Positions 1-9,196 of a DNA stretch of 9,196 bases are shown here, piece after piece. Source of the stretch: a virus (lineage: Duplodnaviria > Heunggongvirae > Uroviricota > Caudoviricetes); the IMG/VR virus record IMGVR_UViG_3300029214_000125; one strand, 5' to 3'. The position numbers and the translations under genes are program-made. The notes beneath the pieces were generated by a model. That model saw only the letters and a program-made list of their open reading frames with translations. It ran no database searches and had not been told where the DNA came from. Position 1 is the first letter of the stretch; each line of letters begins with the position of its first letter.

Positions 1-24
1 TATTTATCTGGAAGGATTCTGTTG

Positions 25-273
25 ATGAAAATCGAAGAATTACGTGAAATTTTTAGTGAAGATGGCCTCTATGCTGTGTGCGTTGAAAATGGAAATCTTG
101 TTAGTCATTACCGCATTATGTGTTTGCGAAAGAATGGGGCTGCGTTAATTAATTTTGTGGATGCTCGGGTCACGGACGGATTTATCTTGCGCGAAGGTGA
201 GTTTGTCACTTCATTACAGGCATTGAAAGAGATCGGAATAAAAGCTGGCTTTTCTGCTTTTTCAGGAGAATAA
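25..273 (+). CDS. Hypothetical small protein (82 aa from ATG 25); may instead be the C-terminus of a longer gene starting before the window
   Basis: ATG at 25 is preceded by GGAAGGA at 11-17. The frame is open back to base 1, so an upstream start cannot be excluded. Stop TAA at 271-273. No family recognised by eye. Confidence 0.4.
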   Translation: MKIEELREIFSEDGLYAVCVENGNLVSHYRIMCLRKNGAALINFVDARVTDGFILREGEFVTSLQALKEIGIKAGFSAFSGE

Positions 274-342
274 ACTCATCTACAATCTTGCGCGGGGCTG
301 AACTCCCGCTGAGTAACACCGTGCCACCGGAGAAACCCGACA

Positions 343-1492: not shown

Positions 1493-1638
1493 AAAAATTC
1501 CTTAATACTGATAACTTGGCGCACTATACACACGTTCCTGAAGAAAGCTATAGTTTTTTGATGGGGTTGAAGATGGCTGGATGTCTAAAATAAACATTGC
1601 TTCATATGTTCAACTATGCGTTAATGATTGCGTCGGTT

Positions 1639-1665
1639 TGAAGAACAGACGATATACGAAGTAGT
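1639..1665 (+). promoter_or_regulatory. Cold-box-like element in the cspB 5' UTR
   Basis: tgaagaacagacgatatacgaagtag resembles the cold box at the 5' end of cspA-family leaders (recalled from cspA). It sits about 150 nt upstream of the cspB ATG. Confidence 0.35.
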
Positions 1666-1792
1666 TTACTAAAGCAGTTCTCATTTCAGGTGTTATTCAC
1701 TTATTCCTTCTTTGAGTCTCTCCAATTAAGTACGAAGTCGTTTCTGTTATGCAAACCATTTATGCCGAAAGGCTCAAGTTAAGGAATGTAGA

Positions 1793-2008
1793 ATGTCAAA
1801 TAAAATGACTGGTTTAGTAAAATGGTTTAACGCTGATAAAGGTTTCGGCTTTATTTCTCCTGTTGATGGTAGTAAAGATGTGTTTGTGCATTTTTCTGCG
1901 ATTCAGAATGATAATTATCGAACCTTATTTGAAGGTCAAAAGGTTACCTTCTCTATAGAGAGTGGTGCTAAAGGTCCTGCAGCAGCAAATGTCATCATTA
2001 CTGATTAA
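1793..2008 (+). CDS. cspB: Cold-shock protein CspB (71 aa)
   Basis: [38 protein letters not shown]... contains the RNP1/RNP2 motifs. SD TAAGGAA lies 6 nt before ATG 1793. Confidence 0.95.
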
Positions 2009-2288
2009 AATTCATCGCTCGTCTGTATACGATAACGAAGAAGGCTGATGCCTGAGTAGAGATACGGACAGAGTAGTGAATATTGGATCTCTTTAATAAA
2101 AAGTAAGGAGGTCCAATACATGAAACAATGGCTAGCATATTTGGCAAAATCTTAATCAGGAAAAGTATGCTAACCATTGTGGTGAAGTGCAGGTTTGCTG
2201 CATGAATAGTTTTACAGCAGAAGCTAACTGCTGGCATGGCAAAACAAAGTGCGTAAGTGGATGACTCCCACAAAAAGCACCACAATCT

Positions 2289-2981: not shown

Positions 2982-3308
2982 ATGACTCAAGACTATGAAC
3001 TGGTTGTGAAAGGAGTCCGTAATTTTGAGAATAAAGTTACGGTAACTGTAGCCTTACAGGACAAAGAACGCTTTGACGGTGAAATTTTTGACCTGGATGT
3101 CGCCATGGACCGTGTTGAAGGAGCTGCGCTGGAGTTTTATGAGGCAGCAGCCAGAAGGAGCGTCCGGCAAGTCTNNNNNNNNNNNNNNNNNNNTCCTGGA
3201 AGTAGCAGAAAAATTGTCAGAAAAAGTTGAGTCTTATCTGCAGCATCAGTACTCCTTTAAGATTGAAAATCCTGCCAATAAGCACGAGCGTCCTCATCAT
3301 AAATATAT

Positions 3309-4336: not shown

Positions 4337-4699
4337 GGTAATATTAAATCGGAACATTTACATCGCGGAATGTAAAATTTAAATAAAAAGGACTCTTCCA
4401 TGAGCCAAAATTCCTGAAATCTTAAGGGTAAGATAAAAGGTCTTAATCAGAATGACACGTTATTATTAATAAATAAAGCTATTCTTTCATTGCTGTGTTT
4501 TTCTTTACAAAAGTAATCCTTGCTATGGGTGGTTAATCATGCGTTAATGGTGTTCTGGTTTGTTACAAATTTATCTGAAGCAGTCATTGTTATAATTTTA
4601 TTATTTGTACCTCTTGAGATTTCCTTGTTGGTTTTTCTCTCTGATATTTTTTTTCGGACCATTCTGCCCAAGGGCTAATTTCTTCAAAAGGTAATAATT

Positions 4700-4912
4700 A
4701 TGTCTAACAAAATGACTGGTTTAGTGAAATGGTTTAACCCTGAAAAAGGTTTTGGTTTCATCACGCCGAAAGATGGCAGCAAAGATGTGTTTGTCCATTT
4801 CTCAGCAATTCAGAGCAACGATTTCAAAACATTAACTGAGAATCAGGAAGTTGAATTTGGTATTGAGAACGGACCTAAAGGTCCTGCCGCTGTTCATGTA
4901 GTGGCGCTTTGA
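4700..4912 (+). CDS. cspI: Cold-shock protein CspI (70 aa)
   Basis: [71 protein letters not shown] long AT-rich leader (4337-4699) with TATAAT at 4591-4596 precedes it. Confidence 0.95.
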
Positions 4913-5000
4913 GGTAGACAATATTACAAACCATATTCACTTTAGATGCCCGTGTTGTCATGGTTCCCAGTATAGAACATCATCTTTTGATGTTTCTGAC

Positions 5001-6378: not shown

Positions 6379-6612
6379 TCAATCTGGTCTGACCTGTTTT
6401 CTGAGCAATTCAGTAATGTCACTCTTTTCTTTGTTTGCTTCAGAAGAAACTCTTTTTTCTGAGCACAGTCTCCGGCGGCAGGCTTCAATGACCCAGGCTG
6501 AGAAATTCCCGGACCCTTTTTGCTCAAGAGCGATGTTAATTTGTTCAATCATTTGGTTAGGAAAGCGGATGTTGCGGGTTGTTGTTCTGCGGGTTCTGTT
6601 CTTCGTTGACAT
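6379..6612 (-). CDS. ynfO: Small basic protein with ribbon-helix-helix-like core (YnfO/YlcI-like, 77 aa)
   Basis: MSTKNRTRRTTTRNIRFPNQMIEQINIALEQKGSGNFSAWVIEACRRRL... has a basic arm, an alternating beta-strand-like RNIRFP, a helix, a GSGN turn and a second helix, which is the RHH pattern. Recalled as similar to YlcI/YnfO. Confidence 0.7.
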   Translation of the reverse strand: MSTKNRTRRTTTRNIRFPNQMIEQINIALEQKGSGNFSAWVIEACRRRLCSEKRVSSEANKEKSDITELLRKQVRPD

Positions 6613-6811
6613 GAGGTTGTCCCGTATTCAGTGTCGCTGATTTGTATTGTCTGAAGTTGTTTTTACGTTAAGTTGATGCAGATCAATTAATACGATATCT
6701 GCGTCATAATTGATTATTTGACGTGGTTTGATGGCGTAGATGCACGTTGTGACATGCAGATGATAATTATTATCATTTTGCGGGTCCTTTCCGGCGATCC
6801 GACAGGTTACG

Positions 6812-6823
6812 GGGCGGCGACCT
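6812..6823 (+). other. cosN: the 12-nt lambda cohesive-end sequence
   Basis: GGGCGGCGACCT is preceded by ...cgggtcctttccggcgatccgacaggttacg and followed by cgcgggttttcgctatttatgaaaattttccggtttaagg. This matches the recalled right-end/left-end junction of phage lambda with a few substitutions. Confidence 0.85.
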
Positions 6824-6990
6824 CGCGGGTTTTCGCTATTTATGAAAATTTTCCGGTTTAAGGCATTTCCGTTCTTCTTCGTCGTAACTTAATGTTTTTA
6901 TTTAAAATACCCCCTGAAAAGAAAGGAAACGACAGGTGCTGAAAACGAGCTTTTGGGCCTCTGTCGTTTCCTTTCTCTGTTTTTGGCCGT
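6824..6990 (+). promoter_or_regulatory. cosB-like region with R-element repeats (Nu1 binding sites)
   Basis: A perfect 15-bp inverted repeat gaaaggaaacgacag (6921-6935) / ctgtcgtttcctttc (6961-6975) and a related tttccgttcttcttcg near 6856-6871 lie between cosN and the Nu1 start, matching the positions of lambda R2, R1 and R3. Confidence 0.7.
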
Positions 6991-7000
6991 GGAATGAACA

Positions 7001-7456
7001 ATGGAAGTCAACAAAAAGCAGCTGGCTGACATTTTCGGTGCGAGTATCCGTACCATTCAGAACTGGCAGGAACAGGGAATGCCCGTTCTGCGAGGCGGTG
7101 GCAAGGGTAATGAGGTGCTTTATGACTCTGCCGCCGTTATAAGATGGTATGCCGAAAGGGATGCTGAAATTGAGAACGAAAAGCTGCGCCGGGAAGTTGA
7201 AGAACTGCGGCAGGCCAGCGAGACAGATCTCCAGCCAGGGACTATTGAGTACGAACGCCATCGACTTACGCGTGCGCAGGCCGACGCACAGGAGCTGAAA
7301 AATGCCAGAGACTCCGCTGAAGTGGTGGAAACCGCATTCTGTACTTTCGTGCTGTCGCGGATCGCAGGTGAAATTGCCAGTATTCTCGACGGGATCCCCC
7401 TGTCGGTGCAGCGGCGTTTTTTTTATTGCAGAAAAGCGAGAGGTAATTATGCGTAA
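7001..7456 (+). CDS. nohA: Terminase small subunit Nu1 homologue, C-terminally truncated and fused to foreign sequence (151 aa)
   Basis: MEVNKKQLADIFGASIRTIQNWQEQGMPVLRGGGKGNEVLYDSAAV... is near-identical to recalled lambda Nu1 through ...LSVQRRF, then diverges to FYCRKARGNYA and stops. The Nu1 C-terminal domain that binds gpA is absent. Confidence 0.85.
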   Translation: MEVNKKQLADIFGASIRTIQNWQEQGMPVLRGGGKGNEVLYDSAAVIRWYAERDAEIENEKLRREVEELRQASETDLQPGTIEYERHRLTRAQADAQELKNARDSAEVVETAFCTFVLSRIAGEIASILDGIPLSVQRRFFYCRKARGNYA

Positions 7457-8048
7457 AGTTTGTGCAGCAATTTTGTCCGCAGCCATTTGTCTGGCCGTAT
7501 CCGGTGCGCCTGCATGGGCGTCTGAACATCAGTCCACGCTGAGCGCGGGGTATCTTCATGCCTCGACGAACGTCCCCGGCAGTGATGATCTGAACGGGAT
7601 TAACGTGAAATACCGTTATGAGTTTACGGACACACTGGGGCTGGTGACGTCATTCAGCTATGCAGGAGACAAGAATCGCCAGCTGACCCGTTACAGCGAT
7701 ACCCGCTGGCATGAAGATTCCGTTCGTAACCGCTGGTTCAGCGTAATGGCGGGGCCGTCTGTGCGCGTGAATGAATGGTTCAGCGCGTATGCGATGGCGG
7801 GTGTGGCTTACAGCCGTGTGTCGACTTTCTCCGGGGATTATCTTCGCGTAACTGACAACAAGGGGAAAAAGCACGATGTGCTGACCGGAAGTGATGACGG
7901 TCGCCACAGCAACACGTCTCTGGCGTGGGGGGCTGGCGTGCAGTTTAACCCGACCGAATCCGTGGCCATTGATATTGCTTATGAAGGCTCCGGCAGTGGT
8001 GACTGGCGCACTGACGGTTTCATCGTGGGTGTCGGTTATAAATTCTGA
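7449..8048 (+). CDS. lom: Lom outer-membrane protein (Ail/Lom/OmpX family, 199 aa)
   Basis: MRKVCAAILSAAICLAVSGAPAWA is a signal peptide with an AxA cleavage site. The C-terminus ...DIAYEGSGSGDWRTDGFIVGVGYKF matches recalled lambda Lom. GAGAGG RBS; the start overlaps the nohA stop. Confidence 0.9.
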   Translation: MRKVCAAILSAAICLAVSGAPAWASEHQSTLSAGYLHASTNVPGSDDLNGINVKYRYEFTDTLGLVTSFSYAGDKNRQLTRYSDTRWHEDSVRNRWFSVMAGPSVRVNEWFSAYAMAGVAYSRVSTFSGDYLRVTDNKGKKHDVLTGSDDGRHSNTSLAWGAGVQFNPTESVAIDIAYEGSGSGDWRTDGFIVGVGYKF

Positions 8049-8074
8049 TTAGCCAGGTAACACAGTGTTATGAC

Positions 8075-8101
8075 AGCCCGCCGGTTCAGGCGGGCTTTTT
8101 T
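8075..8101 (+). terminator. Intrinsic terminator after lom
   Basis: Stem agcccgcc / ggcgggct with loop ggttca, followed by tttttt (8096-8101). Confidence 0.6.
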
Positions 8102-8112
8102 GTGGGGTGAAT

Positions 8113-9196
8113 ATGGCAGTAAAGATTTCAGGTGTACTGAAAGACGGCACAGGAAAACCGGTACAGAACTGCACAATCCAGCTGAAAGCAAAACGTAACA
8201 GCACCACGGTGGTGGTAAACACGCTGGCCTCAGAAAATCCGGATGAAGCCGGGCGTTACAGCATGGACGTTGAGTACGGGCAGTACAGCGTTATTCTGTT
8301 GGTGGAGGGATTCCCGCCGTCACATGCCGGGACCATCACCGTGTATGAAGATTCCCGACCCGGTACGCTGAATGATTTTCTCGGTGCCATGACGGAGGAT
8401 GATGCCCGTCCTGAGGCACTGCGCCGTTTTGAACTGATGGTGGAAGAGGTGGCGCGTAACGCGTCCGCGGTGGCACAGAACACGGCAGCCGCGAAGAAGT
8501 CAGCCAGCGATGCCGGCACATCAGCACGTGAGGCGGCAACCCATGCGACTGATGCTGCAGGCTCAGCACGCGCAGCCAGCACGTCAGCCGGACAGGCCGC
8601 GTCGTCGGCTCAGTCAGCATCTTCCAGCGCAGGAACGGCATCAACAAAGGCCAGTGAAGCATCGAAAAGTGCTGCTGCTGCAGAGTCCTCAAAAAGCGCG
8701 GCAGCTACCAGTGCCGCTGCGGCGAAAACGTCAGAAACGAATGCGGCAGCGTCACAACAATCAGCAGCCACTTCTGCATCCGCCGCGACCACGAAGGCGT
8801 CAGAAGCTGCCACCTCAGCCCGGGATGCGGCGGCCTCAAAAGAGGCGGCAAAATCATCAGAAACGAGCGCAGCCTCGAGCGCCAGTAGTGCAGCCTCCTC
8901 GGCAACAGCGGCAGGAAATTCCGCGAAGGCGGCAAAAACGTCAGAGACGAACGCCAGGTCTTCTGAAACGGCAGCGGGACAGAGCGCCTCGGCTGCGGCA
9001 GGCTCAAAAACAGCGGCTGCGTCGTCTGCCAGTGCAGCGTCAACAAGTGCCGGGCAGGCCTCAGCCAGTGCCACCGCCGCCGGAAAATCGGCAGAAAGCG
9101 CCGCATCGTCTGCTTCAACAGCCACAACGAAGGCTGGCGAAGCCACTGAACAGGCCAGCGCAGCAGCGAGGTCTGCTTCCGCAGCGAAGACATCCG
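8113..9196 (+). CDS. stf: Side tail fibre protein Stf, N-terminal part (3' end beyond the window)
   Basis: MAVKISGVLKDGTGKPVQNCTIQLKAKRNSTTVVVNTLASENPDEAGRYSMDVEYGQYSVIL... matches the recalled N-terminus of lambda Stf, followed by the Ala/Ser/Thr-rich repetitive region. Frame checked open at several points to 9196; absent from the ORF track because it has no stop in the window. Confidence 0.9.
   Translation, partial: MAVKISGVLKDGTGKPVQNCTIQLKAKRNSTTVVVNTLASENPDEAGRYSMDVEYGQYSVILLVEGFPPSHAGTITVYEDSRPGTLNDFLGAMTEDDARPEALRRFELMVEEVARNASAVAQNTAAAKKSASDAGTSAREAATHATDAAGSARAASTSAGQAASSAQSASSSAGTASTKASEASKSAAAAESSKSAAATSAAAAKTSETNAAASQQSAATSASAATTKASEAATSARDAAASKEAAKSSETSAASSASSAASSATAAGNSAKAAKTSETNARSSETAAGQSASAAAGSKTAAASSASAASTSAGQASASATAAGKSAESAASSASTATTKAGEATEQASAAARSASAAKTS

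What the first reader, a model, noticed from the sequence alone, without database searches (positions are those of the whole stretch)
7380..7460. Deletion junction fusing Nu1 codon ~140 to the region just upstream of lom
Nu1 identity ends at ...cagcggcgtttt (about 7420) and lom begins at 7449. In lambda these two points are about 18 kb apart, separated by genes A through J. The window therefore records a single clean deletion of all morphogenetic genes that spares cos on one side and lom/stf on the other. The 28-bp joint contains the lom RBS, so lom may now be driven by read-through from across cos.
Basis: partly seen in the sequence, partly recalled or inferred. Interest (0 to 1): 0.5.

Follow-up and report, generated by a model that had tools for sequence, protein, structure and literature searches.

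The report
Deletion scar in Qin cryptic prophage
This is a real but ordinary scar of prophage decay: an 18-kb deletion in a Qin-type defective lambda-like prophage of E. coli removed every head and tail gene and joined a shortened terminase small-subunit gene directly to the outer-membrane gene lom.

Summary
The window is a Qin-type cryptic lambdoid prophage of E. coli. Window 6812-7420 matches lambda 1-610 (cos plus nu1 codons 1-140) at 97.5%. From 7419 onward it matches the J-lom intergenic region, lom and stf of intact lambdoid phages at up to 99.8%. In the intact phage ev243 the two points lie 18.45 kb apart, with genes A to J between them.

The crossover lies in a run of eight T (7417-7424). 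Only 2 nt (TT, 7419-7420) are perfectly shared, inside an imperfect match GGCGTTTT/GGCGCCTT. No filler DNA or IS element is present, which fits illegitimate, microhomology-type deletion.

The deletion removed the hairpin of the terminator after J but kept its T tract and the lom ribosome-binding site. The truncated nu1 frame (151 aa) now stops 5 nt inside lom.

The junction is absent from 5,426 complete E. coli genomes. It is identical in the 10 public contigs I read (the fused 151-aa protein is recorded on 24), and these continue into the Qin right end, so it is a real lineage allele. Other Qin-locus relatives carry different, independent deletions. Whether lom now depends on read-through is untested. 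Low interest.

The parts
6450..6811 (+). Homologue of the right end of the lambda chromosome (lambda 48141-48502), i.e. the side of cos upstream of the nick site
   Evidence: 95.0% identity to lambda 48141-48502
6812..6823 (+). cosN cohesive-end sequence GGGCGGCGACCT
   Evidence: Identical to lambda bases 1-12; the sequence is quoted in PMC9611059
6824..7000 (+). cosB-equivalent region between cosN and the nu1 start
   Evidence: Aligns to lambda 13-190 with 6 substitutions and a 1-nt gap
7001..7456 (+). Truncated nu1/nohA ORF (151 aa): Nu1 residues 1-140 plus 11 out-of-context residues (FYCRKARGNYA). The stop codon TAA at 7454-7456 overlaps the start of lom
   Evidence: BLASTP 137/140 to lambda Nu1 residues 1-140; Pfam Phage_Nu1 profile positions 1-141 of 164, E 8.8e-88; ORF list
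7401..7416 (+). Weak hairpin made of nu1 sequence that now precedes the T run (5 pairs, 2 of them G-T)
   Evidence: Lowest-ranked terminator-like hit. The 46-nt region folds no better than shuffles (z -0.63), against z -3.25 and -5.40 for the intact J terminators of relatives
7413..7420 (+). Imperfect microhomology GGCGTTTT (nu1) versus GGCGCCTT (3' arm of the J terminator in the Qin-locus relative 19SZHZ713Rt)
   Evidence: The blastn match to L005 already begins at 7413; sequences
7419..7420 (.). Deletion junction: 2-nt perfect overlap (TT) between the end of the nu1 match and the start of the J-lom intergenic match, inside the T8 run 7417-7424
   Evidence: The left match ends at 7420 and the right match starts at 7419. 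T8 is identical in 10 independent contigs
7421..7448 (+). Surviving 3' part of the J-lom intergenic region: the remainder of the terminator T tract and the lom Shine-Dalgarno sequence GAGAGG (7438-7443)
   Evidence: Identical to the sequence upstream of lom in PhiR42_1, TUM9812, 19SZHZ713Rt and ev243
7449..8048 (+). lom, an intact Ail/Lom family outer-membrane beta-barrel gene (199 aa). The allele is shared with many lambdoid phages and is 45% identical to lambda Lom
   Evidence: Pfam Ail_Lom positions 1-199 of 199, E 9.9e-123; 99.8% DNA identity to PhiR42_1
8075..8102 (+). Strong intrinsic-terminator-like hairpin plus T run between lom and stf
   Evidence: Top terminator-like hit, 8 pairs of which 7 are G-C
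8113..9196 (+). 5' part of the side tail fibre gene stf; it is open to the end of the window
   Evidence: Translation open for 361 codons; Pfam phage_tail_N positions 1-134 of 134. The gene is 986 or 942 aa in contigs that carry the same junction

Best explanation
The window is a Qin-type cryptic lambdoid prophage of E. coli. Its ancestor carried a lambda-like morphogenetic region (nu1, A to J, lom, stf, tfa).

An illegitimate, homology-poor recombination event joined nu1 codon 140 to the 3' arm and T tract of the intrinsic terminator that follows J. This could have been replication slippage or break repair. The perfect overlap is 2 nt, and 6 of 8 bases match in register. About 18.4 kb was excised, comprising the last 41 nu1 codons and genes A through J.

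The result is a packaging- and virion-dead prophage. It keeps cos, a Nu1 fragment that retains the N-terminal DNA-binding part but lacks the C-terminal part, an intact lom, and the stf-tfa-pin module.

Shown:
- both parental sequences;
- the position of the junction;
- the absence of filler or IS DNA;
- the Qin chromosomal context;
- recurrence of the identical junction in independent assemblies.

Inferred:
- the recombination mechanism;
- that the loss happened in one step;
- any effect on lom expression. The hairpin is lost and the nu1' stop now overlaps the lom start, which could allow read-through and translational coupling.
For: - Lambda alignment: window 6812-7420 = lambda 1-610.
- Intact phage ev243: window 6812-7420 = ev243 1-607 and window 7419-8457 = ev243 19056-20094. 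Genes from the terminase large subunit to the J-type tail fibre lie between these points.
- K-12 and 52F4 nohA continue as Nu1 past the break.
- The Qin-locus relative 19SZHZ713Rt keeps the J 3' end and the terminator GGGCGCC-agaaat-GGCGCC-T6, followed by the same 24 nt and lom.
- The Qin gene order is matched at 99% identity.
- The exact 151-aa fusion ORF is on record on 24 contigs from NCBI, ENA, Logan and JGI. All 10 contigs read have the same T8 junction. Four of them (L010, L011, L012, L014) continue through stf, tfa, pin and ydfK into ydfJ and ydfI, and two of these (L010, L011) also extend left of the junction to flxA, relBE and hokD, which places the junction at the Qin locus.
- Other Qin-locus genomes show different end points: lambda 321|17220, 719|~21.2 kb, 956|mid-lom, 1944|6683 plus 8067|19585, and 882|6066 plus 8064|mid-lom. 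This proves a lambda-like ancestor and recurrent independent decay.
- The literature reports Qin sizes from 11 to 97 kb across 189 strains (PMC6379469).
Against: - The one-step nature of the deletion cannot be shown from the end product.
- The microhomology is very short (2 nt perfect). The register-based 6/8 match depends on which relative is taken as a proxy for the ancestor; phages with GACGCC in place of GGCGCC give 5/8.
- The window itself ends inside stf, so the chromosomal context comes from near-identical contigs (99.6-100% over the shared length), not from the window.
- No expression data exist for lom or nu1' in this allele.
Confidence: 0.88

Rival explanations
1. The same end product arose through two or more successive, nested deletions rather than one clean event. 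The last deletion erased the earlier junctions.
For: Qin-locus relatives 1303 and DP051 each carry two separate internal junctions in this region (A'|'E ... Z'|stf or 'lom). This shows that stepwise erosion does occur here.
Against: No remnant of any gene from A to J is left in the window. None of the variants examined could be an intermediate, because each lacks something the window keeps: nu1 up to nt 420, or an intact lom with its upstream 30 nt.
Confidence: 0.2
2. The joint was made by recombination between two different lambdoid prophages in one chromosome (Qin nohA and the lom-stf of another prophage). It would then mark a chromosomal rearrangement rather than an internal deletion.
For: E. 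coli genomes hold a median of 3 and up to 17 places matching this nu1/lom query. The right side is slightly closer to free phages (99.8%) than to the Qin-locus relative 19SZHZ713Rt (98.7%).
Against: Contigs with the identical junction run on through stf, tfa, pin, ydfK, ynfT, ydfJ and ydfI, the normal Qin right end, in the normal orientation. Several other Qin-locus prophages have lom and stf in the same place.
Confidence: 0.04
3. The joint is an assembly or scaffolding artefact: a chimeric join at a homopolymer.
For: The junction sits in a T8 homopolymer. The window contains an artificial run of 19 N elsewhere (3175-3193), so its source was scaffolded or masked. The junction is absent from 5,426 complete E. 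coli genomes, from the GTDB species representatives and from the JGI metagenome scan.
Against: The identical junction appears in at least 10 independently assembled contigs from different projects and assemblers, one of them a 285-kb contig of an NCBI genome assembly. The fused protein is recorded on 24 contigs. A 2-nt overlap cannot mislead an assembler.
Confidence: 0.01

Closest known systems
Qin cryptic prophage of E. coli K-12 (nohA/nohQ - stfQ' - tfaQ - pinQ region)
   Same: Same chromosomal element and gene order, at about 99% identity up to nohA. It is also a lambda-like prophage that has lost genes A to J by deletion while keeping cos and a nu1 homologue.
   Different: The K-12 junction is different and independent. 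nu1 is kept to about lambda base 719 (about codon 177) and fused to the distal part of stf, so K-12 has no lom and only a stf fragment. The window keeps lom and a full stf start but loses 41 nu1 codons. The window lineage also has a 1.58-kb deletion removing ydfU and the 5' end of the Q antiterminator gene.
Intact lambda-like phages carrying the same lom allele (ev243, PhiR42_1, phage 434, BP-4795)
   Same: nu1 codons 1-140 are 97.5% identical, and the J-lom intergenic 3' part, lom and the stf 5' end are 97-99.8% identical. The order cos - nu1 ... J - terminator - lom - terminator - stf is the same.
   Different: These phages have 18.4 kb of head and tail genes between the two points, and a strong terminator hairpin after J that is missing in the window.
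Microhomology-mediated (illegitimate, short-homology) deletions in bacterial chromosomes and decaying prophages
   Same: A flush junction with no filler or IS element, 2 nt of perfect overlap inside an 8-nt imperfect match, next to a hairpin-forming terminator. The second deletion in the same window has a similar imperfect short homology.
   Different: The mechanism is inferred from the scar only. The 2-nt overlap is at the low end of what is usually called microhomology, so simple end joining of a break cannot be excluded.

Membership tests
Qin cryptic prophage (E. coli, ydfJ locus) | Characteristic gene order rem - quuQ - cspF - cspB - essQ - ydfR - rrrQ - rzpQ - cspI - gnsB - ydfO - ynfO - cos - nohA at high identity | tested here: met
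   About 99.1-99.2% identity to K-12 C600, 52F4 and 19SZHZ713Rt across these genes
Qin cryptic prophage (E. coli, ydfJ locus) | Right end abuts tfaQ - pinQ - ydfK - ydfJ | tested here: met
   The window stops inside stf, so this is not visible in the window itself. It is met in contigs L010, L011, L012 and L014, which carry the identical junction and are 99.6-100% identical to the window.
Lambda terminase small subunit Nu1 (PF07471) | N-terminal DNA-binding part and central region of Nu1 | tested here: met
   Pfam Phage_Nu1 profile positions 1-141 of 164, 292 bits; 137/140 identity to lambda Nu1
Lambda terminase small subunit Nu1 (PF07471) | C-terminal ~40 residues. From my own knowledge, these are needed for binding the large subunit gpA (Frackman, Siegele and Feiss 1985; Yang et al. 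1999, both listed in the references of PMC9611059). | tested here: not met
   Residues 141-181 are replaced by 11 unrelated residues. The gene is therefore a truncated remnant, not a functional terminase subunit.
Lambda-type cos site | 12-nt cohesive-end sequence GGGCGGCGACCT, flanked by homologues of the lambda left and right ends | tested here: met
   Window 6812-6823 is identical to lambda 1-12, and the flanks are 95-97.5% identical to lambda. Function was not tested.
Ail/Lom outer-membrane beta-barrel family | Full-length match to the family profile with an N-terminal signal peptide | tested here: met
   Pfam Ail_Lom positions 1-199 of 199, E 9.9e-123. The N-terminus MRKVCAAILSAAICLAVSGAPAWA reads as a signal peptide by direct reading.
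Internal deletion by illegitimate or microhomology recombination | Both flanks are collinear with one intact relative, nothing lies in between, and there is short homology at the joint | tested here: met
   Collinear with ev243 at 1-607 and 19056-20094, with a 2-nt overlap. The imperfect 8-nt match is shown. No IS or filler DNA is present.
Internal deletion by illegitimate or microhomology recombination | RecA-independent slippage or end-joining mechanism, in a single event | not testable with these tools
   Only the scar is available.
Intrinsic terminator between J and lom | Stable G+C-rich hairpin immediately followed by a T run | tested here: not met
   In relatives the hairpin is -15.7 to -17.2 kcal/mol with z -3.25 to -5.40. 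In the window only the T run survives; the substitute hairpin has 5 pairs with 2 G-T, and the region folds no better than shuffles (z -0.63).

The most novel reading that the evidence does not exclude
The retained cos plus Nu1(1-140) may not be inert debris. The fragment keeps the N-terminal, cosB-binding part of Nu1 but lacks the part that recruits the large terminase subunit. It could act as a dominant-negative decoy that occupies cosB of superinfecting lambda-like phages and interferes with their packaging. The deletion also rewires lom: it loses its upstream terminator hairpin and becomes translationally coupled to nu1'. Nothing found here excludes this reading, but nothing supports it beyond the domain boundary and the ATG/TAA overlap.
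Probability: 0.04. Interest if true: 0.5.

Novelty: new member of a known kind. Interest (0 to 1): 0.12.

Why it matters
The finding matters little beyond bookkeeping.

- It is a cleanly resolved example of how a lambda-like prophage becomes 'grounded', and it gives a base-pair-precise lineage marker for one E. coli Qin allele.
- Taken with the other Qin-locus variants, it shows that the head and tail region was lost repeatedly and independently, while cos/nu1' and the lom-stf-tfa-pin side were often kept. This is in line with published views of prophage domestication.
- It would become more interesting only if the truncated Nu1 or the rewired lom proved to have a selected function.

Tried and rejected
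- Exact-junction search, allowing 4 to 12 T, in the GTDB species-representative genomes and in JGI metagenome contigs: 0 hits each.
- Megablast of the junction against 5,426 complete E. coli genomes: no single-piece hit. The only full-coverage hit (TUM9812) is a two-piece match that still holds a J fragment.
- These negative results briefly raised the possibility of an artefact. That was rejected after the exact-protein look-up found the fused ORF on 24 contigs.
- A lom promoter was sought in the intact J-lom regions of relatives by consensus scan. None was found, and the literature says little is known about the lom promoter (PMC2147009). Whether the deletion removed lom's own promoter therefore cannot be decided.
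- The '-' strand ORFs called after lom in contigs L016, L017 and L019 were considered as a possible IS insertion. This was rejected because those contigs align collinearly with the window's stf.
- Rfam found nothing at the junction.
- A literature search for the gpNu1 domain boundaries returned only reference-list citations, so the domain statement rests on my own knowledge.

Full report
**What the window is.** Megablast of the whole window against 5,426 complete E. coli genomes matches the Qin cryptic prophage. The gene order is rem, quuQ (ydfT), cspF, cspB, essQ, ydfR, rrrQ, rzpQ, cspI, gnsB, ydfO, ynfO, nohA, at about 99% identity. The finding lies at the distal end of this block.

**The left flank.**
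- Window 6450-6811 aligns to lambda 48141-48502 (95%), and window 6812-7420 to lambda 1-610 (97.5%).
- The 12-nt cohesive end GGGCGGCGACCT is intact at 6812-6823.
- Lambda nu1 starts at 191, so base 610 closes codon 140.
- The ORF 7001-7456 encodes 151 aa. The first 140 are 137/140 identical to lambda Nu1, and Pfam Phage_Nu1 covers profile positions 1-141 of 164.
- K-12 nohA is 100% identical up to 7420. In an alignment, K-12 and strain 52F4 go on with Nu1 sequence (…CGGCGTTTT CCGGAACTGGAAAACCGA…), whereas the window reads …CGGCGTTTT TTTTATTGCAG….

**The right flank.**
- From 7419 onward the window matches intact lambdoid phages across the end of the J-lom intergenic region, lom and the start of stf. 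Identities are PhiR42_1 99.8%, ev243 99.7%, phage 434 97.4% and BP-4795 98.0%.
- In these phages, and in prophages that still keep the 3' end of J, the intergenic region is: J stop, about 40 nt, a G+C-rich hairpin (GGCGTCA-ggaa-TGACGCC or GGGCGCC-agaaat-GGCGCC), T6, then ATTGCAGAAAAGCGAGAGGTAATT-ATG.
- Window 7421-7448 is identical to the last 28 nt of that region. The '28-bp joint' is therefore not filler. It is the native tail of the J terminator plus the lom Shine-Dalgarno sequence (GAGAGG, 7438-7443).
- lom (7449-8048) is full length: Ail_Lom 1-199 of 199. It is a different allele from lambda's own lom (45% amino-acid identity). This is why lambda itself only re-aligns from lambda 19458.
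- A strong terminator-like hairpin follows at 8075-8096. stf starts at 8113 and is open to the end of the window.

**Size and content of the gap.** In the intact phage ev243, window 6812-7420 equals ev243 1-607 and window 7419-8457 equals ev243 19056-20094. About 18.45 kb is therefore missing. That segment holds the terminase large subunit, portal, protease, decoration, capsid, FI, FII, all tail genes and J. In lambda coordinates the break is 610 | about 18938, roughly 18.3 kb. None of 252 matching phage records has nu1 and lom adjacent.

**Anatomy of the joint.**
- nu1 reads GCAGCGGCG-TTTT-CCGG.
- The Qin-locus relative 19SZHZ713Rt reads AATGGCG-CC-TTTTTT-ATTGC.
- The window reads GCAGCGGCG-TTTTTTTT-ATTGC.
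- In register, GGCGTTTT and GGCGCCTT share 6 of 8 bases (5 of 8 if the ancestor had GACGCC, as in the phages).
- The crossover must lie in the last TT (7419-7420). That is exactly the 2-nt overlap between the left and right BLAST matches.
- There is no IS element, filler or duplication.
- This is the signature of illegitimate, short-homology deletion. The mechanism is inferred, not shown.

**Consequences read from the sequence.**
- The 5' arm, the loop and most of the 3' arm of the J terminator are gone. The intact terminators fold at -15.7 to -17.2 kcal/mol (z -3.25 to -5.40). The junction region folds no better than shuffled sequence (z -0.63). Only a 5-pair hairpin with two G-T pairs precedes the T8 run.
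- The truncated nu1 frame runs on through the lom ribosome-binding site and stops at TAA 7454-7456, overlapping the lom ATG (ATGCGTAA). Translational coupling is therefore possible, but this is inference.
- Nu1 loses its C-terminal 41 residues. From my own knowledge of the lambda literature (Frackman et al. 1985; Yang et al. 1999, both cited in PMC9611059), that region binds gpA. gpA itself is deleted here.
- The read-through idea is plausible but untested. In intact phages lom already sits downstream in the late operon. The neighbouring upstream genes ydfO and ynfO are divergent. Only one consensus promoter-like site lies upstream (6749-6776), and the count of such sites is no higher than in shuffled sequence. 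The Q antiterminator gene of this prophage is truncated at its 5' end (see the passing notes below). Little is known about lom's own promoter (PMC2147009), and consensus scans of intact J-lom regions found none.

**Is the junction real?**
- It is absent from all 5,426 complete E. coli genomes, from the GTDB species representatives and from the JGI metagenome scan.
- However, the exact 151-aa fusion protein is on record on 24 contigs from NCBI, ENA, Logan and JGI.
- All ten contigs I read carry the identical junction with T8 and are 99.5-100% identical to the window.
- The long contigs give the chromosomal context. L010 (a 285-kb contig of GCA_902859435.1) and L011 read flxA, relBE, hokD, rem, truncated quuQ (171 aa), and so on to ynfO, then nu1' (151 aa), lom (199), stf (986), tfa (191), pin, ydfK, ydfJ and ydfI. 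L012 and L014 also reach ydfJ and ydfI, with a 942-aa stf.
- This is the Qin locus with its normal right end. It excludes a misassembly and an inter-prophage rearrangement.

**Context.** Other Qin-locus prophages carry different deletions. In lambda coordinates:

| Strain | Junction(s) |
|---|---|
| K-12 | 719 \| about 21.2 kb (no lom, stf fragment) |
| 52F4 | 956 \| mid-lom |
| 19SZHZ713Rt | 321 \| 17220 |
| 1303 | 1944 \| 6683 and 8067 \| 19585 |
| DP051 | 882 \| 6066 and 8064 \| mid-lom |

- The remnants are 91-98% identical to lambda's A, E, FI, FII, Z and J. The ancestor was therefore a lambda-like phage, and decay has been recurrent and independent.
- None of these variants can be a precursor of the window allele, because each lacks something the window retains.
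- The protein cluster holding the 151-aa ORF has 881 members. The named members listed are annotated as partial E. coli DNA-packaging proteins of many different lengths.
- Published work already reports Qin sizes from 11 to 97 kb among 189 strains (PMC6379469).

**Verdict.** The feature is an ordinary deletion scar in a known cryptic prophage. It is a new allele of a known kind, of low interest. One speculative reading remains open at low probability: that the retained cos plus Nu1(1-140) fragment, or the rewired lom, has a selected function.

Noticed in passing
window 333-340 (flanks 1-340 and 299-860): A second deletion scar. Relative to 52F4, 19SZHZ713Rt, 1303 and DP051, about 1.58 kb is missing: a small hypothetical gene, ydfU, and roughly the first 76 codons of the Q antiterminator gene ydfT/quuQ. 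The joint is at an imperfect short homology (CACCGGAGAAAACCGA versus CACTGGATAACCCGA). The remaining ORF 343-858 (171 aa, TTG start) still has the Pfam Antiterm domain. No complete E. coli genome has this joint, but the contigs that carry the nu1'-lom junction and reach this region also encode the 171-aa ORF.
   Followed up: partly
window 3175-3193: A run of 19 N inside ydfR. All 14 related loci that cover this position read GGCAAGTCT|TCCTGGAAG with nothing in between. The N run is therefore an inserted scaffolding or masking artefact, not missing sequence.
   Followed up: yes
window 1632-2024 and 4554-4939: Two Rfam cspA thermoregulator (RF01766) matches above the gathering score, in front of the prophage cold-shock genes cspB and cspI.
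   Followed up: no
window 6749-6776: A sigma-70-like site (GTGACA-16-TATCAT, 10 of 12) on the + strand, just upstream of cos and pointing towards nu1' and lom. Lambda differs at four positions in or near the site, two of them inside the hexamers. It is the only candidate found for a promoter reading across cos. The count of such sites is not above chance.
   Followed up: partly
window 1-55: Eight of the nine substitutions between the window and contig L010 cluster in the first 55 bases. The rest of the window is nearly identical to L010, which suggests a local recombination patch or a different haplotype at the rem-proximal end.
   Followed up: no
L010 11113-14073 versus L012 11113-13941: In contigs with the same junction, stf is 986 aa in some and 942 aa in others. 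The window shows that the stf 5' part is Ala/Ser-rich; where in the gene the length difference lies was not examined.
   Followed up: no
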